Translations under genes and position numbers: made by a program
In this document: positions 23,750 through 47,916 of the stretch, in pieces
Position numbering within the stretch: position 1 is the first letter of the stretch
How the letters are laid out: every line of letters starts with the position of its first letter
UHGV virus genome: UHGV-0211740
Source of the DNA: a virus
Length of the DNA: 64,000 bases
Direction: 5' to 3' (one strand)
Notes under the pieces: generated by a model
What the model was told of the DNA's origin: nothing
Seen by the model: only the letters and a program-made list of their open reading frames with translations
Databases searched by the model: none

Positions 23750-25126
23750 ATGCCATATTTAGATAAAGTGGTAGATGTTACAGTTAACCTCGGAACCCAG
23801 CCTATTGACACTGTAGGTTTCGAAACTCCCCTGTTCATCGCTATCCACAATAACTTTACTGAGCGAGCTCGCGTATATGCTGAGCTGGACCAGATGGTGG
23901 AAGATGGTTTCGCACAAGGCTCTGCAGCATATGAGTTTGCAGCAAAAGCTTTTGGTGGTGTATTCCCTCCACAATATGTTATGATCGGCAGACAAGCCAA
24001 AGAAAAAACCACTGTAGATTTTAAAGGTATTGCTGCCGCAGCCGATACCGATGTCGTAATGACTATTGCAAAAGGTGACTACAATACTGCCTTGATAGTC
24101 CCTGTTTCTGGTGGAACAGCTGCAACTCAGATTGCAGAATCAATGAAGACCAAAATTGAAGCAGATGATAGCTTGAACGATATCACTGTAGTGGCTTCTG
24201 AAGGTGTTCTCACCATCACTGGTGACTGCACTGTTGGTTATCATACTGGTAACTATACCATTAAGAATGTCCCTAATGCTGAAAAACCTTCTACAGTAAT
24301 TGACAAGATCAATGCTGAGCGAGACAATTGGTACTTCCTGTGCCATGAAGACCACACTGACATTGAAGCGTGTGCTAAGTGGGCTCAGGCTAACTACAAG
24401 TTGCATGTCTACTCTACTTCAGAAGATGTAACTGGTAAAGACAGCAACATCGCCGCTAAACTGAAAGCTGCAAAATATGACAGTGTTGGTATGTACGACC
24501 CTCGCGCCGACAAAGACTTCCCAGAGGGCGGTATTATCGGTGCTATGGCATCCAACGACCCATCTTACGGCGACAGCTTACACTTAAAACAGATGCCTGG
24601 TGTGCTTGCACCATCACTGACATTGACCCAGCGCATGGCGATTTGGGAGAACAACATTAACTTCTACAGAACAATCAACGGTGTTGGTGCTTTCTGGGAA
24701 GGTAAATGTGCCTCTGGTCAGTATGCAGATGCTATCCGCTTCGCTCACTGGATTAAGTTTAGATCTGAAGAGTCCATGTTCGGATATATGCACCGCCGCT
24801 CTAATATGGGCCTGAGCATGAAGATGTCTGATGATGATCTGCCAGTTATCAAGTCTGTTCTGATGAACAACCCGATCAATACGGGCATTAAGAACGGTGC
24901 GATCCTGACAGGTTTTGACGAAGACAATAATGTATTCTACGACCCGATCATTACAGTTCCAAAACGTGCAGAAATCCCGACCAACCAGTTGGCTGCTCGT
25001 GTTCTGGAAGGTGTGAAAGTAGAACTGGTGTATAACAACGCTCTGCACTTCGTTCGTATCCGGATCAACGTTCTTCTGGACAAAGTTGGTTCTAAATCCA
25101 CCAATGCTGTTGCAATGACTGAATAA
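23750..25126 (+). CDS. major tail structural protein (tail sheath-like; assignment tentative)
   Basis: 458 aa; followed by a 157-aa gene, a chaperone pair and the tape measure, the order expected for sheath-tube-chaperone-TMP; a C-terminal segment (FWEGKCASG) is reminiscent of sheath proteins from memory. Confidence 0.4.
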   Translation: MPYLDKVVDVTVNLGTQPIDTVGFETPLFIAIHNNFTERARVYAELDQMVEDGFAQGSAAYEFAAKAFGGVFPPQYVMIGRQAKEKTTVDFKGIAAAADTDVVMTIAKGDYNTALIVPVSGGTAATQIAESMKTKIEADDSLNDITVVASEGVLTITGDCTVGYHTGNYTIKNVPNAEKPSTVIDKINAERDNWYFLCHEDHTDIEACAKWAQANYKLHVYSTSEDVTGKDSNIAAKLKAAKYDSVGMYDPRADKDFPEGGIIGAMASNDPSYGDSLHLKQMPGVLAPSLTLTQRMAIWENNINFYRTINGVGAFWEGKCASGQYADAIRFAHWIKFRSEESMFGYMHRRSNMGLSMKMSDDDLPVIKSVLMNNPINTGIKNGAILTGFDEDNNVFYDPIITVPKRAEIPTNQLAARVLEGVKVELVYNNALHFVRIRINVLLDKVGSKSTNAVAMTE

Positions 25127-25136
25127 GGAATACTAG

Positions 25137-25610
25137 ATGGAAACTCAAATTTTAACTCCTTATGCGTATGACCCTAAAAAGGTCAAACTGTATCTGATGC
25201 AGCAGCGTGTCACTGGCTTCGCTGCTGACACCAAGATCGTTGTTTCAAGAAATGAAGACAACATCTACCCTCACGTCGGTGTGGATGGCGAAATGTCTGC
25301 GGCTCTGTCTCGTAACCAATCCGGTGTTATGACTGTATCTTTGCAGAACACTTCTGTATGGAACGCCTACCTTTCTGACTGGCAGAAACAGGCATCAATC
25401 ACTGGTCTGGTATTCTTCCCGGTTCTGTTGGAAGGTAGCCAGGGTCCTGGTATTGCCACAATCGGTTGGATCCAGAAACAGCCCGACCTGACTTATGGAA
25501 CCGAAGTAGGTCAGCTGGACTGGGATATCGGTATCCTGGATGCATGGCTCAACCGTGACAACATCACTGGTGCTCTCACTGGCCTCGCAGGTCTTGCAGG
25601 TATTATCTAA
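25137..25610 (+). CDS. putative tail tube protein
   Basis: 157 aa directly after the sheath-like gene. Confidence 0.4.
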   Translation: METQILTPYAYDPKKVKLYLMQQRVTGFAADTKIVVSRNEDNIYPHVGVDGEMSAALSRNQSGVMTVSLQNTSVWNAYLSDWQKQASITGLVFFPVLLEGSQGPGIATIGWIQKQPDLTYGTEVGQLDWDIGILDAWLNRDNITGALTGLAGLAGII

Positions 25611-25628
25611 GAGCACACTTCAGCATAA

Positions 25629-25659
25629 GCCTCACCTTCAGGTGGGGCTTTTTGCTTTT
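25629..25659 (+). terminator. rho-independent terminator
   Basis: GCCTCACC-TTCA-GGTGGGGC hairpin then TTTTTGCTTTT. Confidence 0.6.
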
Positions 25660-25700
25660 ATGGTTCTGACACACGTTCTTGAATTGCTTGAAAGGTTAAA

Positions 25701-25729
25701 TTGACAATGCACCATAATCATGGTAAAAT
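25701..25729 (+). promoter_or_regulatory. promoter with conserved TGGTAAAATA extended -10
   Basis: TTGACA (25701-25706), 17-nt spacer, TGGTAAAAT (25721-25729). Confidence 0.5.
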
Positions 25730-25772
25730 ACACAAATATGGTGCACAACATGACTAATAAGGATGCTATAAA

Positions 25773-26246
25773 ATGGCTATAAACTTTAGACCTACAACAG
25801 AGATTGACTTAGCAGGGCACAACTTCGTGATCACCCACTGGGGGCCGATGAAGGCAATGAAAAACATGCCTAAGATTGGCAAGATTGTGGCTGTCCCGTT
25901 GGGTGCTATCGGTGGATCTATTATCTCAGGCGGTCAGAATATGGCAGAGGTCCTTCCTACTGCTCTGGCCTACCTGTTCCAGGAACTTGATGATAACTCT
26001 ATTGAAGAGTTATTTAAAATCTTGTTCGAAGATATTACTGTAGACGGTGTGGATAGGCTTAATCCCGATGTCGTGTTTGCAGGGCATCTGCTGGAAATGA
26101 TTAAACTGGCAGGTAAGGTTCTGGAGGTTAACTACGGCTGTTTTTTCACACAAGACGGTTTAGGAAGCCTTCTGGAGATGTTACAGCAGATGGGTATGAT
26201 TCAGCAGGTGAACAATCTGGATCAGACTCCGGAAGAGCAGGAATAA
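25773..26246 (+). CDS. tail assembly chaperone
   Basis: 157 aa, acidic C-terminus, directly upstream of tape measure; overlapped at its 3' end by an open -1 frame. Confidence 0.55.
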   Translation: MAINFRPTTEIDLAGHNFVITHWGPMKAMKNMPKIGKIVAVPLGAIGGSIISGGQNMAEVLPTALAYLFQELDDNSIEELFKILFEDITVDGVDRLNPDVVFAGHLLEMIKLAGKVLEVNYGCFFTQDGLGSLLEMLQQMGMIQQVNNLDQTPEEQE

Positions 26247-26506
26247 GCAAAGTTGTTGTGAGAGCCAGTGAGTGGGCAGCTAAGAATAGCTCACTTAACT
26301 GGTTCGACTTTCTTTGGTGTAGGGTGCTCAAGAACTTTAAAGGGGAAAATTTTGAATCGCTTAATCTTGCAGATATGGCGTATTTCCTCAAGCTCTGTGA
26401 GTATCTTGATATCGAAGAATTCCTAGATACCGTCCAAAACAGGGAAATGGAGCGGGAGCAGAAGGCTGCCGCAGCTGCTGCGAAAGCTAAGCGCAGGAGA
26501 GGATAA
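26132..26506 (+). CDS. tail assembly chaperone frameshift extension (GT-like, -1 frame)
   Basis: Frame open from 26132 to 26506 overlapping the last 115 nt of the chaperone gene; slippery heptamer T_TTT_TTC at 26141-26147 in the chaperone frame. Confidence 0.5.
   Translation, partial: LRLFFHTRRFRKPSGDVTADGYDSAGEQSGSDSGRAGISKVVVRASEWAAKNSSLNWFDFLWCRVLKNFKGENFESLNLADMAYFLKLCEYLDIEEFLDTVQNREMEREQKAAAAAAKAKRRRG
26141..26147 (+). other. candidate -1 programmed ribosomal frameshift slippery site
   Basis: TTTTTTC read as tgT TTT TTC (YGCFF) in the zero frame; matches X_XXY_YYZ. Confidence 0.5.
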
Positions 26507-26511
26507 TCTAA

Positions 26512-26549
26512 GGGCCGGATTCCTTTTCTGGGATCTGGCCCTTTTTATT
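26512..26549 (+). terminator. terminator-like hairpin
   Basis: GGGCC ... GGCCC stem followed by TTTTTATT. Confidence 0.4.
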
Positions 26550-26560
26550 ATGAGGAAAAC

Positions 26561-28900
26561 ATGGCTACAAATAAGATAGTTGCCACAACAGTCAACAAGA
26601 TTGGCTTTGAGATAGAGAACTCCTCCTACAAAAAAGCTGTAGAGAAAATTCGCAGTATCGGGAAGGAGTTCAGGAAACTGGGCGAGGATTTTAACTCAGC
26701 CAACCCCATGAGCAGATGGCAGGCAGTGGCTGTTAAAACTCAGCAGACAATGCAACGTGTTGCCAGACAGCAATCCCAAGCAAATGCTAAACTACACAGG
26801 GAGAGCGTTGCTCAGGCCAAGAAAGAGGCTGCAGTAAAGGCTGCAATAGAGCGCAGGGAGAATGCAAGACGTAAGCAAGCTGTAGGCAATCTTACCGCCA
26901 AAAACCCAGAGATGGCTAGGATGCGTAAGTTCTACCAGCAGCAAGCTAAAGAGGCCAAAAAAGCTGCCAAATCTGCACCAGTATCCTATGGTGGTTATAA
27001 GGCACCTAAGGCAAGAGTTCTTGCTAACGCCAAGTCTTTCAGATATATTCCCGGCAACCCTAACATGGGTGGGGTGGCTTCAGATCCTAATCTTGTGAAA
27101 GCCCAGACTGCTGCCATGAACCGTTATCACAGACAGCTAAGAAGGGACAGCAAGGCTGGGATGGATAATAGGCTTATGGCAGATCGTGAGGCAAGGAGAA
27201 CCCACCTCTACAACTCTGCGATAAGACTTTCTGCTAAATATGGTGCCGGATTCCGTGGCAGATTGTCTGGGTATTCGGAGTTAGAGTCCCGATTTGCTCG
27301 CGGGGAAATGAGTAAGTCAACCTTTAACGCCCACCTGTCTGCGTTGCAGTCTGGATTCAAAAGTGCCACCAGCCAAACTCTGACCCTCGGTGATGCTATG
27401 AGGGATTTGCGTAGATCTGTGATCAACGCTACAGCTGCGTATACAGCTTTTTCTGGATTTGCTGCAGTTAACAGATCCGGTCATATGATGGAGGGGGCAA
27501 GTGCTGCTCTTACTGCTGTTACTGGAGATCCAAACAAAGCCAACAGTGAAGTTGCGTTTGTCCAGCAGGAGGCTATGCGTCTTGGTTTTGACCTCAAGTC
27601 TGGTCTTCAGGGTTATTCTCAGATGGCGGTAAACGCCAAAAATCAGATGACAAACCAAGAGGTGCATGAGCTATTCTCTGCATACTCCCAATATGCTGCT
27701 GCTTACGGTGCCGATGAGGTAAAATACCAGCGCGGTATTATGGCAATCCAGCAAATGCTCGGTAAAGGGCAAGTAATGTCCGAAGAACTGAAGCAACAAC
27801 TTGCTGAAGCATTACCTGGTGCATACGAACCTTTTATCAAAGCTACCCAAGAGGCTTTTGGTCTTGCTGAGCTCTCCATGGATCAGTTCATGGACATGAT
27901 GAAAAAAGGTGAAGTTAAAACAGCCAAGATAATGAAGTATGTGGCTAAGTACATGAATGAGGCATCTGCAGCTGGTTATGAAAGAATGCAGAAGTCTAAC
28001 GTACTGGCAGAAAACAGACTGAAAACCTTCATCGAACTGTCCCGTCAGAAACTGTTCACACGTTGGGCAGATGAACTGACAGAGTTCTACTACACCCTGA
28101 TCCGCACAGGGGAAACTTTCCAGTTCCTATGGGACGCTTCTGGTGACTTTGTCAGCGGATTTGTGAGAGGTTTGAACTGGGTTGTTGGTGAACTAAACAA
28201 CACTATAGTTAAGATCCGTTTGTTTTTCCTTGAATGGGGAATTAAATGGGGGCTCATAACCGCCAAGACGAAGGAATATTCTGAAGAGATACATGACACC
28301 TTTAGCATGGCTAAATGGGCAGGGTATGCTGCTGCAATCATGCTGGTAGTGAACGCCCTTACAAAAGGGTTTGTTATGGCATCCATGCTTGTAAAAACAT
28401 TTAAGTTCCTCAGCAACCTGAGAGGTGCAGCTGGAGCTGCAGGTGCTGGTGCAGTAACCGCAGACGGCTCTGGAGGAGGAGCAGCCGGAAAAGGTGGTGG
28501 TGGCCTCAAGACACCTGGTGGCAAAGTTGGTCTGCTCGGTAAGCTGGGCATTATCGGTACAATACTAAGCGCCGGGGAATTATTTAATGACCGTTTCAAC
28601 CCGCTGAGTGAAAGAAATCAACAGCTGGATACCATCGGCGATATGATTCGTAAAGACATCATATCTGGAGGTAACGGGTTTGTTGATCCTCTAAGCACCT
28701 TGCCGGGAGGTACTCTTCCGTTACCAGGTGGCCCTGGTTTTGCTTCTCAGTTAAGAACTATGGAAATGCTACCTTTAGAGATCAGTGATGGTAAAATCAC
28801 GATTTCAATAGATGAGGGCGAGTTTAGCAAAATATTTGATGCAAAACTTGAGTGGGAGAACAGTAAAGATATCAACTTTATGTCCACAGATCTTTGGTAA
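26561..28900 (+). CDS. tail tape measure protein
   Basis: 779 aa; immediately after the chaperone frameshift pair; helix-rich N-terminal half with basic repeats, C-terminal Gly/Ala-rich hydrophobic segment (GAAGAAGAGAVTADGSGGGAAGKGGGG). Confidence 0.75.
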   Translation: MATNKIVATTVNKIGFEIENSSYKKAVEKIRSIGKEFRKLGEDFNSANPMSRWQAVAVKTQQTMQRVARQQSQANAKLHRESVAQAKKEAAVKAAIERRENARRKQAVGNLTAKNPEMARMRKFYQQQAKEAKKAAKSAPVSYGGYKAPKARVLANAKSFRYIPGNPNMGGVASDPNLVKAQTAAMNRYHRQLRRDSKAGMDNRLMADREARRTHLYNSAIRLSAKYGAGFRGRLSGYSELESRFARGEMSKSTFNAHLSALQSGFKSATSQTLTLGDAMRDLRRSVINATAAYTAFSGFAAVNRSGHMMEGASAALTAVTGDPNKANSEVAFVQQEAMRLGFDLKSGLQGYSQMAVNAKNQMTNQEVHELFSAYSQYAAAYGADEVKYQRGIMAIQQMLGKGQVMSEELKQQLAEALPGAYEPFIKATQEAFGLAELSMDQFMDMMKKGEVKTAKIMKYVAKYMNEASAAGYERMQKSNVLAENRLKTFIELSRQKLFTRWADELTEFYYTLIRTGETFQFLWDASGDFVSGFVRGLNWVVGELNNTIVKIRLFFLEWGIKWGLITAKTKEYSEEIHDTFSMAKWAGYAAAIMLVVNALTKGFVMASMLVKTFKFLSNLRGAAGAAGAGAVTADGSGGGAAGKGGGGLKTPGGKVGLLGKLGIIGTILSAGELFNDRFNPLSERNQQLDTIGDMIRKDIISGGNGFVDPLSTLPGGTLPLPGGPGFASQLRTMEMLPLEISDGKITISIDEGEFSKIFDAKLEWENSKDINFMSTDLW

Positions 28901-28911
28901 TTAAACTATGT

Positions 28912-28937
28912 GGGGGGGCTCTGGCCCCCTTTATTTT
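28912..28937 (+). terminator. rho-independent terminator
   Basis: G5/C5 stem (GGGGG-CTCTGG-CCCCC) followed by TTTATTTT. Confidence 0.5.
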
Positions 28938-47229: not shown

Positions 47230-47916
47230 ATGGCAGAGATTAAGTCGGATGTCAACCACATCCACACTCTGCCAGATTTTGTTCAGGGAGGTCTTGACTA
47301 CCTGCCTGGAGATTTTCTGGCTGAGAAGGTTAATTTGGTCACATTCTTAACCGTGTACCTTAAAAGGTTGGAGGATGTTGATAAGATGCTGGTAGGTTTG
47401 GCTGAAGGAAGATTGCTTAACAATGCCAGCGGAAGATACCTTGACGAGGTAGGAAATCAGCTTGGCATTCTTAGGAACGGGCTTTCAGATGCCGATTTTC
47501 GTGCCACACTAATTATTCAGCAGGCAGCATCCTCAAGGGGTGGGACTAGAGAAGATGTCATCTCCACTTTGCGACAATTGTTCGGAAGAAATAATTTCGA
47601 TACGTGGAAAGGTGACAACTTCAGGTTTGACATAAATATTAGAAAAACTTGCTTTGATATACTGCAGTCTATCGATCAGATCTTAGATATGCTACCGCTG
47701 CCTTGCCATTTGCGGCTTACAGAGTCGCAGGGGCAAGCTTTTGGCTTTGAAGGGGACTCAACAGCTCTCGGTTTCGGATCAGTGTGGGAAGAAAACCAGT
47801 TCGGAGTTGGTGGATTGGCTACTTTATTGTACGTTCCTGACGTAAGACCTGATTGGGACACCACAACCATTTATTGTGAAAGTATTACAGTGAACGCAAC
47901 TAGACAGGAGGGTTAA
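47230..47916 (+). CDS. putative baseplate protein (P2 gpI-like)
   Basis: 228 aa; segment SRGGTREDVISTLRQLFG...W..DNFRFDINI resembles the gpI family block (KGT...V.EW...FRLDI) from memory. Confidence 0.45.
   Translation: MAEIKSDVNHIHTLPDFVQGGLDYLPGDFLAEKVNLVTFLTVYLKRLEDVDKMLVGLAEGRLLNNASGRYLDEVGNQLGILRNGLSDADFRATLIIQQAASSRGGTREDVISTLRQLFGRNNFDTWKGDNFRFDINIRKTCFDILQSIDQILDMLPLPCHLRLTESQGQAFGFEGDSTALGFGSVWEENQFGVGGLATLLYVPDVRPDWDTTTIYCESITVNATRQEG

What the first reader, a model, noticed from the sequence alone, without database searches (positions are those of the whole stretch)
26132..26506. Tail chaperone -1 frameshift with a canonical T_TTT_TTC slippery heptamer
The -1 frame is open across the last 115 nt of the chaperone gene and continues 260 nt beyond its stop. 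The slippery site sits 9 nt into the overlap, as in lambda G/GT and many other tailed phages. This fixes the chaperone identity and gives a testable site.
Basis: partly seen in the sequence, partly recalled or inferred. Interest (0 to 1): 0.45.

Follow-up and report, generated by a model that had tools for sequence, protein, structure and literature searches.

The report
Tail chaperone -1 frameshift site
This is the standard two-proteins-from-one-gene ribosomal frameshift that long-tailed phages use to build their tails; it is here in an rV5-like coliphage, very well conserved, but missing from the public annotations sampled for this phage group.

Summary
The tail assembly chaperone gene runs 25773-26246. 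Its -1 frame is open from 26132 to 26506: 115 nt of overlap and 260 nt beyond the stop. An in-phase T_TTT_TTC lies at 26141-26147.

The window is an rV5-like Vequintavirus with the gene order sheath, tube, chaperone, -1 ORF, tape measure. Pfam PF21822, PHROG 3840 and fold matches to YqbN and the HK97 chaperone independently confirm the chaperone.

All 51 related loci examined (about 40 distinct, down to 28% protein identity) keep a -1 ORF of 191-296 nt beyond the stop and an in-phase slippery heptamer at the same place. It is TTTTTTC in 49, C_CCT_TTT in one and G_GGA_AAG in one. Codon choice is fixed (TTT-TTC in 14/14, preceding codon always ending in T). The downstream ORF is under purifying selection (dN/dS 0.03-0.2) and has no conserved start codon.

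I found no significant or conserved downstream RNA structure. A GGAGG lies 13 nt upstream and is only partly conserved.

No sampled public record, and no protein among the hits of one database search, carries the fusion. A 2025 paper describes the same device in sister clades. The verdict is a correct but ordinary finding: a new member of a known kind.

The parts
23750..25126 (+). Tail sheath gene (context)
   Evidence: phrog_205 tail sheath, E 3e-119; PF11863. Annotated as tail sheath in Murica.
25137..25610 (+). Tail tube gene (context)
   Evidence: PF11681, E 4e-9; phrog_280. rV5 gp52 was identified as tail tube by mass spectrometry.
25627..25650 (+). Intrinsic terminator after the tube gene
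   Evidence: 10-pair stem followed by a T run. Equals t052 in rV5 Table S4.
25701..25729 (+). Sigma-70-type promoter in front of the chaperone gene
   Evidence: TTGACA-17-TAAAAT, 11 of 12 matches, with an extended -10 TG. Equals P051 in rV5 Table S4.
25773..26246 (+). Short chaperone product (G / TAC-N), 157 aa, 17.3 kDa, zero frame
26123..26127 (+). Internal Shine-Dalgarno-like GGAGG, 13 nt 5' of the heptamer (possible stimulator; inferred)
   Evidence: Read from the sequence. GGAGG density is 0.81 per kb. It is conserved in only some lineages and overlaps the Leu-Glu-Val codons.
26129..26131 (+). TAA in the -1 frame that sets the 5' limit of the overlap
26141..26147 (+). Slippery heptamer T_TTT_TTC, in phase (zero frame TGT TTT TTC)
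   Evidence: The homologous site holds an in-phase heptamer in 51 of 51 relatives. Codons are fixed in 14 of 14.
26147..26506 (+). -1 frame part (T) of the long product. GT / TAC-NC joins 25773-26147 to 26147-26506: 244 aa, 27.1 kDa. It has a Gly/Ser-rich linker, then a conserved domain of about 85 aa with a basic C-terminus.
   Evidence: Translation. phrog_10409, E 2e-51. Alignment of T parts. dN/dS 0.03-0.2.
26510..26543 (+). Intrinsic terminator 4 nt after the -1 frame stop
   Evidence: 14-pair stem followed by a T run. Equals t050 in rV5 Table S4, -24.2 kcal/mol.
26561..28900 (+). Tape measure protein gene (context; presumed client of the chaperone)
   Evidence: PF20155 TMP_3, E 2e-18; phrog_5255, E 0.

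Best explanation
Gene 25773-26246 encodes the tail assembly chaperone of an rV5-like myovirus.

Most ribosomes read it to its TAA and make the 157-aa short form (G / TAC-N). A minority pause with tRNA-Phe on UUU (P site) and UUC (A site) at 26142-26147. These slip back one base to UUU-UUU and continue in the -1 frame to 26506. The result is a 244-aa long form (GT / TAC-NC), ...NYGCFF|HTRRFRKPSG..., ending in a conserved domain of about 85 aa.

By analogy with lambda G/GT, the shared N-terminal domain is expected to coat the tape measure protein (26561-28900), and the T domain is expected to recruit the tube protein. Both forms should leave before the virion is finished, and the frameshift sets their ratio.

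Shown here: the sequence architecture, the family and fold assignment, conservation of the site and of the -1 ORF, selection on codon choice, and purifying selection on the T part.

Inferred, not shown: that the fusion protein is made, its proportion, the binding partners, and any role of the upstream GGAGG.
For: Architecture and phase.

Chaperone identity:
- PF21822, E 3e-23; phrog_3840, E 1e-68.
- Position between tube and tape measure.

Conservation:
- The 13 GenBank relatives (28-54% identity; several genera of Vequintavirinae, plus Stephanstirmvirinae, Plateaulakevirus, Barbavirus and KLEP7), 6 metagenome loci and 31 IMG/VR loci all keep a -1 ORF overlapping by 85-157 nt and extending 191-296 nt.
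- All have an in-phase heptamer 57-105 nt before the chaperone stop.
- TTTTTTC is replaced by other canonical heptamers, C_CCT_TTT in KLEP7 and G_GGA_AAG in Barba19A. This is expected if the slipperiness of the site is what selection preserves.

Codon level:
- Phe124 is TTT in 14/14 and Phe125 is TTC in 14/14.
- The preceding codon ends in T in 14/14 even though its amino acid varies (TGT, TCT, CCT, AGT).
- Another conserved Phe splits TTT 7 : TTC 6.

The T part is coding: dN/dS is 0.03 (window vs L015) and 0.10-0.20 in other pairs.

No conserved start codon:
- The first ATG/GTG/TTG after the chaperone stop lies at +12 to +144 nt.
- In Kpn_K54rec2, PBES02, KLEP7 and phiA009 it lies inside the conserved domain.

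Domain boundary: the shift site sits at the end of the folded domain. AF2 pLDDT is below 50 for residues 124-157.

Heptamer class: UUN A-site codons and all-pyrimidine heptamers are among the frameshift-prone classes in E. coli (PMC4066793).

Virion data: rV5 gp50 and gp51 carry no virion MS evidence, and the phiTE virion paper contains no mention of a chaperone. Both fit a chaperone that leaves the particle.

The same device with a GTTTTT motif is reported in sister clades (PMC12846349).
Against: - There is no experimental evidence of the fusion protein for this phage group.
- No significant local RNA structure lies downstream (z = +0.11 and +0.27 for 53 and 83 nt, -1.58 for 113 nt). No conserved structure was found either (consensus -4 kcal/mol, covariation term unfavourable). 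Any stimulation is therefore unexplained, although lambda G/GT also works without a strong stimulator (my own knowledge).
- The upstream GGAGG is absent from the Certrevirus-like, Klebsiella, Plateaulakevirus and Barbavirus relatives, and it is confounded by the conserved Leu-Glu-Val codons.
- The Phe-Phe dipeptide is itself invariant in the protein, so part of the nucleotide conservation is protein-level.
- The IMG/VR loci were partly retrieved with a pattern containing NYG[CS]FF. That biases them towards the dipeptide, though not towards the codons.
Confidence: 0.88

Rival explanations
1. Separate gene. The downstream ORF is translated on its own from an internal start (GTG 26258 as in most records, GTG 26324, or the CTG at 26138 as in the original rV5 annotation), and the heptamer is incidental.
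For: Public records annotate it this way. Gene callers report proteins of 80-82 aa. The window has a GTG 12 nt after the chaperone stop.
Against: - Annotated starts differ from record to record, and no start codon is conserved.
- In several relatives the first possible start lies inside the conserved domain (+144 nt in Kpn_K54rec2, +87 in PBES02, +108 in KLEP7).
- The window has no ATG/GTG/TTG in the -1 frame between 26132 and 26258.
- The nearest SD-like AGGA is 15 nt upstream of GTG 26258, which is poor spacing.
- This reading does not explain the 85-157 nt of open overlap, nor the fixed TTT-TTC codons in every relative.
Confidence: 0.04
2. Transcriptional slippage. RNA polymerase adds one extra U at the T6 run, so a fraction of mRNAs encode the fusion by standard translation.
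For: The site is a homopolymer run, and adding one nucleotide gives the same -1 product. Transcriptional slippage on A/T runs is known in bacteria and IS elements (PMC5009743).
Against: - Six T is shorter than the runs known to slip efficiently in bacteria (about 9 or more; my own knowledge).
- Barba19A has G_GGA_AAG and KLEP7 has C_CCT_TTT at the homologous place. These are tandem-tRNA slippage motifs without a long homopolymer.
- The strict phase of the heptamer relative to the zero frame in 51 of 51 loci matters for ribosomes, not for RNA polymerase.
Confidence: 0.05
3. Chance. The open -1 frame and the heptamer are coincidences with no function.
For: A single in-phase heptamer in a 38-codon overlap has p of about 0.1 by itself.
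Against: - Both features are conserved in 51 of 51 loci down to 28% protein identity.
- dN/dS in the -1 ORF is 0.03-0.2.
- The terminator is placed just after the -1 frame stop, not after the chaperone stop.
Confidence: 0.01

Closest known systems
Phage lambda G / GT tail assembly chaperones (Levin et al. 1993; Xu, Hendrix & Duda 2004, 2013, 2014; summarised in PMC5009743)
   Same: - Two overlapping ORFs lie directly upstream of the tape measure gene.
[quoted passage not shown]
- The long form shares its N-terminal domain with the short form and adds a C-terminal T domain.
- No strong RNA stimulator is evident.
   Different: - The heptamer is T_TTT_TTC, not G_GGA_AAG.
- The host tail is contractile (sheath and tube), not a siphovirus tail.
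- There is no detectable sequence similarity to lambda G; the family is PF21822.
- The ratio and the binding partners have not been measured here.
TAC-N / TAC-NC frameshift with an invariant GTTTTT motif in Vandenendeviridae (Pakpunavirus Adele) and Andersonviridae (Mooglevirus) (PMC12846349; PMC4319497)
   Same: - Large lytic myoviruses described in that paper as evolutionary relatives of Vequintavirinae.
- The downstream ORF is routinely mis-annotated as a hypothetical protein.
- The -1 frame is uninterrupted in every genome.
- A poly-T slippery motif sits at the 3' end of TAC-N.
   Different: That study does not report the site for Vequintavirinae, Stephanstirmvirinae or Plateaulakevirus. 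I did not compare its sequences directly with this window.
E. coli dnaX -1 frameshift (A_AAA_AAG with an upstream SD-like element and a downstream hairpin)
   Same: A slippery heptamer is preceded by an internal Shine-Dalgarno-like sequence at about 10-14 nt. Here it is GGAGG, 13 nt upstream.
   Different: Here there is no downstream hairpin. The SD-like element is only partly conserved and untested.
T4-like phage tail assembly chaperones (Vladimirov, Gautam & Davidson 2022, as summarised in PMC10885494)
   Same: A contractile-tailed phage needs both a short and a long chaperone form.
   Different: Some T4-like phages carry separate genes for the short and long forms instead of frameshifting. 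This phage has the single-gene overlapping layout.

Membership tests
Frameshifted tail assembly chaperone pair (lambda G/GT type) | Located between the major tail/tube gene and the tape measure gene, on the same strand | tested here: met
   Tube 25137-25610, chaperone 25773-26246, -1 ORF to 26506, tape measure 26561-28900. The order is the same in the relatives with annotated neighbours.
Frameshifted tail assembly chaperone pair (lambda G/GT type) | Second ORF overlaps the 3' end of the first in the -1 frame and lacks its own conserved start | tested here: met
   115-nt overlap plus a 260-nt extension. There is no conserved start codon across relatives, and in some the first start lies inside the conserved domain.
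Frameshifted tail assembly chaperone pair (lambda G/GT type) | In-phase slippery X_XXY_YYZ heptamer inside the overlap | tested here: met
   T_TTT_TTC at 26141-26147. Present in 51 of 51 relatives, with two substitutions by other canonical heptamers. Codon choice is fixed.
Frameshifted tail assembly chaperone pair (lambda G/GT type) | Both a short and a long protein are made, at a fixed low ratio (about 30:1 in lambda) | not testable with these tools
   Needs a western blot, mass spectrometry or a reporter assay. No fusion protein appears among the database hits.
Frameshifted tail assembly chaperone pair (lambda G/GT type) | Required for tail assembly but absent from mature virions | tested here: inconclusive
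   rV5 gp50 and gp51 carry no 'MS evidence' flag in Table S3. The phiTE and phi92 virion structure papers contain no mention of a chaperone. This is absence of evidence only; the requirement itself was not tested.
Pfam PF21822 Phage_TAC_15 | Whole-protein score above the curated gathering threshold (22 bits) | tested here: met
   83.1 bits, E 3.1e-23, residues 15-129 matching profile positions 2-125 of 127.
Tail assembly chaperone fold (HK97 gp / YqbN-XkdN type) | Predicted structure superimposes on solved chaperones | tested here: inconclusive
dnaX-type SD-stimulated -1 frameshift | Conserved SD-like element about 10-14 nt 5' of the heptamer | tested here: inconclusive
   GGAGG lies 13 nt upstream in the window. 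It is also present in close and intermediate relatives, Av-05 and phAPEC8. It is weakened or absent in 4MG (GGAG), Kpn (GAAG), Certrevirus-like phages, Plateaulakevirus and Barbavirus.
dnaX-type / IS-type stimulated -1 frameshift | Stable hairpin or pseudoknot 5-9 nt 3' of the heptamer | tested here: not met
   z-scores of +0.11, +0.27 and -1.58 against shuffles. Consensus fold -4.0 kcal/mol with no supporting covariation. No Rfam match.

The most novel reading that the evidence does not exclude
The Vequintavirus site may work without any downstream RNA structure and depend instead on the internal GGAGG 13 nt upstream pairing with 16S rRNA, as in dnaX. That would make it a natural phage chaperone frameshift tuned by an upstream SD alone. 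Lineages that lack the GGAGG would then run at a lower G:GT ratio or use a different stimulator.
Probability: 0.25. Interest if true: 0.3.

Novelty: new member of a known kind. Interest (0 to 1): 0.2.

Why it matters
The main value is for annotation.
- In the 60 of 118 Vequintavirus records sampled, the downstream ORF is labelled 'hypothetical protein' or left uncalled. None of the other records inspected annotates a joined gene either.
- No protein among the hits of one search of a 5.8-billion-cluster database covers more than 62% of the fusion.
- Annotating a joined coding sequence at 25773..26147,26147..26506 would correct this across rV5-like therapeutic and biocontrol phages and their relatives in Stephanstirmvirinae and Plateaulakevirus.

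The finding also extends the reported poly-T chaperone frameshift of Vandenendeviridae and Andersonviridae to further large-myovirus clades. It gives a clean, testable site for anyone engineering these phages. It does not reveal a new mechanism.

Tried and rejected
- **Downstream stimulatory structure.** I folded 26148-26200, -26230, -26260 and 26120-26260 and ran a consensus fold of six Vequintavirinae sequences. Nothing was significant or conserved. The 141-nt fold pairs the heptamer itself, which is not a stimulator geometry (z -0.95).
- **Rfam scan of 25500-26700 at E up to 1.** It returned only a chance sRNA hit below threshold.
- **Fusion protein in public databases.** A search with the 244-aa product found only proteins of 149-159 aa. 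A search with the T part found only three proteins of 80-82 aa.
- **Solved structures by sequence.** None.
- **Single-sequence AlphaFold of the fusion.** pLDDT was 37.9, so the model is unusable and says nothing about the T domain.
- **Literature.** Searches for an explicit report in rV5, Vequintavirinae, PVP-SE1, phAPEC8, phi92 or Certrevirus found none. The rV5 paper mentions neither a frameshift nor a chaperone.
- **Exact frameshift rate of U_UUU_UUC in E. coli.** It is given only in a figure of PMC4066793, which is not held as text.
- **Vladimirov et al. 2022.** The paper is not held.
- **Synonymous-rate suppression inside the overlap.** I considered it but did not pursue it. The linker part of T is highly variable, and dS is saturated in most pairs.

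Full report
**1. What is in the sequence**

The window carries, on the + strand, ORFs at 23750-25126, 25137-25610, 25773-26246, 26258-26506 and 26561-28900. The 25773-26246 ORF encodes 157 aa.

Its -1 frame has a TAA at 26129-26131 and is then open from 26132 to the TAA at 26504-26506.

TTTTTTC lies at 26141-26147, 9 nt into the overlap. The zero frame reads GGC TGT TTT TTC ACA, so the heptamer is in the X_XXY_YYZ phase: P-site UUU, A-site UUC, and both can re-pair with UUU after a one-base backward slip.

A shift here gives a 244-aa product...KVLEVNYGCFF|HTRRFRKPSGD... (27.1 kDa, against 17.3 kDa for the short form). The +1 frame is open for only 25 nt beyond the stop.

**2. What the genes are**

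The region is 98.8% identical to a Vequintavirinae genome and 96% identical to rV5-like coliphages such as Murica.

Family scans give the following assignments:

| Coordinates | Assignment | Evidence |
|---|---|---|
| 23750-25126 | tail sheath | phrog_205, E 3e-119 |
| 25137-25610 | tail tube | PF11681 |
| 25773-26246 | tail assembly chaperone | PF21822 Phage_TAC_15, E 3e-23, 83 bits vs cut-off 22; phrog_3840, E 1e-68 |
| -1 ORF to 26506 | unknown function | phrog_10409 |
| 26561-28900 | tape measure protein | PF20155; phrog_5255 |

Chaperone identity is therefore established independently of the frameshift. Residues 124-157, which is everything after the Phe-Phe at the shift site, have pLDDT below 50. 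The shift thus occurs at the end of the folded domain.

**3. Is it more than chance?**

Within the window, this is the only one of 52 long + strand ORFs that combines a long overlap, a long -1 extension and an in-phase heptamer in the overlap. TTTTTTC occurs only four times on this strand.

The comparative evidence is decisive. I examined three sets of related loci:
- 13 GenBank relatives found by tblastn at 28-54% protein identity, plus close relatives. They cover Vequintavirus, Seunavirus, Avunavirus, Certrevirus, an unclassified Vequintavirinae phage, three Stephanstirmvirinae, two Plateaulakevirus, Barbavirus and Pseudaeromonas phage KLEP7.
- 6 metagenome loci at 42-88% identity.
- 31 IMG/VR loci. 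Some duplicate the GenBank phages, so about 40 of the 51 loci are distinct.

Every locus has a -1 ORF overlapping the chaperone gene by 85-157 nt and running 191-296 nt past its stop. Every locus also has an in-phase X_XXY_YYZ heptamer 57-105 nt before the stop. The heptamer is TTTTTTC in 49 loci, C_CCT_TTT in KLEP7 and G_GGA_AAG (the lambda heptamer) in Barba19A. Replacement of one canonical slippery heptamer by another at the homologous position is what selection for slipperiness predicts.

At codon level, in a 14-sequence alignment:
- Phe124 is TTT in 14/14 and Phe125 is TTC in 14/14.
- The preceding codon always ends in T, although it encodes Cys, Ser or Pro (TGT, TCT, AGT, CCT).
- Another conserved Phe in the same gene splits TTT 7 : TTC 6.

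One caveat applies. One of the two peptide patterns used to retrieve the IMG/VR loci contained NYG[CS]FF. That set is therefore biased towards the dipeptide, though not towards its codons.

**4. Is the downstream ORF a separate gene?**

Its translation aligns across all relatives. After a variable Gly/Ser-rich linker comes a conserved domain of about 85 aa (...KNSSLxWFDYLWCRxLKxFKGE...SL..ADM.YLLKLNEYLDIEEF...) with a basic C-terminus. It is under purifying selection: dN/dS is 0.03 against an 88%-identical relative and 0.10-0.20 in other pairs.

There is no conserved start codon, however.
- The first ATG/GTG/TTG after the chaperone stop ranges from +12 nt to +144 nt.
- In Kpn_K54rec2, PBES02, KLEP7 and phiA009 that first start lies inside the conserved domain.
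- In the window there is no ATG/GTG/TTG in the -1 frame between 26132 and 26258, and the nearest AGGA is 15 nt upstream of that GTG.

Public annotations disagree on the start. Murica uses the GTG at 26258 and rV5_ev146 uses the GTG at 26324. The rV5 paper lists gene 50 as 122 aa overlapping gene 51 by 109 nt, which corresponds to a CTG at 26138. Independent initiation is therefore a poor explanation.

**5. Stimulatory elements**

I found none.
- Minimum free energies for 53, 83 and 113 nt downstream give z-scores of +0.11, +0.27 and -1.58 against dinucleotide shuffles.
- A consensus fold of six Vequintavirinae sequences gives -4.0 kcal/mol with an unfavourable covariation term.
- Rfam finds nothing.

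Upstream, a GGAGG at 26123-26127 lies 13 nt 5' of the heptamer. From my own knowledge (Larsen et al. 1994), this is the range in which an internal Shine-Dalgarno sequence stimulates the dnaX -1 shift. GGAGG occurs 0.81 times per kb in the window, so finding one in a 5-nt spacing band has p of about 0.004.

That element also encodes the conserved Leu-Glu-Val. It is weakened or absent in 4MG, the Klebsiella phage, the Certrevirus-like phages, Plateaulakevirus and Barbavirus. I treat it as a possible lineage-specific enhancer, not shown.

Sharma et al. 2014 report that UUN A-site codons and all-pyrimidine heptamers are among the more frameshift-prone classes in E. coli, even without stimulators (PMC4066793). 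The phage tRNA set in the window has no tRNA-Phe, so host tRNA-Phe would decode both codons.

**6. Ribosomal or transcriptional slippage?**

A T6 run could in principle let RNA polymerase add a U. Three points argue against this:
- Six bases is short for bacterial transcriptional slippage (my own knowledge).
- The heptamer is in strict codon phase in every locus.
- Two lineages have heptamers without a long homopolymer.

I give this rival about 5%.

**7. Transcription context**

An intrinsic terminator follows the tube gene (25627-25650). A near-consensus promoter, TTGACA-17-TAAAAT with an extended -10 TG, sits at 25701-25729. A strong terminator (26510-26543) begins 4 nt after the -1 frame stop, not after the chaperone stop. 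The rV5 paper already lists these as t052, P051 and t050. The terminator's position fits a transcription unit that ends with the T part.

**8. Comparison with what is known**

The mechanism is the classic lambda G/GT device. The short and long forms share a domain that binds the tape measure protein. The T domain binds the major tail protein. The ratio of about 30:1 matters, and neither product is in the virion (PMC5009743).

The closest published case is a December 2025 paper. It shows a conserved -1 frameshift with an invariant GTTTTT motif in the chaperone locus of 159 Vandenendeviridae and 231 Andersonviridae genomes, clades it relates to Vequintavirinae. It notes the same mis-annotation of the downstream ORF as a hypothetical protein (PMC12846349). 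[quoted passage not shown]

For Vequintavirinae themselves I found no report.
- The rV5 paper mentions neither a frameshift nor a chaperone and leaves genes 50 and 51 without function.
- The phiTE and phi92 virion structure papers contain no mention of a chaperone.
- In 60 of 118 Vequintavirus records sampled evenly, the T region is 'hypothetical protein', 'Phage protein' or uncalled.
- No protein among the hits of a 5.8-billion-cluster database search covers more than 62% of the fusion.

**9. Verdict**

This is a programmed -1 ribosomal frameshift in the tail assembly chaperone gene of an rV5-like phage (confidence about 0.88).

It is a new, unannotated member of a very well known kind. The main consequence is a corrected annotation (join 25773..26147,26147..26506) that applies to a large group of phages. 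Interest is low, at 0.2.

The most novel reading still open is stimulation by the upstream SD alone. It is modestly probable and only modestly interesting.

Noticed in passing
window 25600-26600 vs GenBank MG0656xx records: About 18-23 records named 'Campylobacter phage' (host C. jejuni) are about 96% identical at nucleotide level (100% for one chaperone protein) to this rV5-like coliphage region. The naming or host assignment of those records looks doubtful.
   Followed up: no
window 25627-25650, 25701-25729, 26510-26543, 28912-28931: The chaperone/T unit has its own near-consensus sigma-70 promoter and is bracketed by intrinsic terminators, and another terminator follows the tape measure gene. 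These match P051, t052, t050 and t049 predicted in the rV5 paper. Such a strong host-type promoter inside a late structural module is unusual.
   Followed up: partly
window 11660-12468: The tRNA cluster has six genes (Arg-tct, Tyr-gta, Ser-tga, Thr-tgt, Met-cat, Pro-tgg). Table S3 of the rV5 paper lists five, without tRNA-Ser. The 90-nt tRNA-Ser at 11937-12026 may be an addition, or it may have been missed in rV5.
   Followed up: no
window 26138 (rV5 gene 50, 47514..47882 in rV5 coordinates): The original rV5 annotation called the downstream ORF as 122 aa overlapping gene 51 by 109 nt. By my coordinate mapping that implies a CTG start three bases before the slippery heptamer. The long overlap was thus recorded but not interpreted.
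   Followed up: yes
L011 2120-2758 (Rheinheimera phage Barba19A): An HNH endonuclease gene on the opposite strand is inserted between the end of the T ORF and the tape measure gene. This shows the chaperone-tape measure junction tolerates a mobile insertion.
   Followed up: no
L017 1-1397 and L018 1-1444 (human gut metagenome relatives): A 512-621 aa protein with DUF723 hits lies directly upstream of the chaperone gene, where the tube gene sits in other relatives. It may be an inserted homing-endonuclease-like gene.
   Followed up: no
window 26129-26131: The -1 frame TAA that opens the overlap comes from the conserved Val-Asn codons (GTT AAC), only 9 nt before the heptamer. The same 9-nt spacing recurs in Murica, Av-05, Kpn_K54rec2, KLEP7 and the gut-metagenome group. 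Ribosomes that shift early would therefore terminate at once.
   Followed up: partly
L009 1872-1881, L012 1872-1881 and L014 1824-1833 (Stephanstirmvirinae): These phages carry two overlapping in-phase heptamers, C_CCT_TTT followed by T_TTT_TTC (CCCTTTTTTC), giving an extended slippery tract.
   Followed up: no
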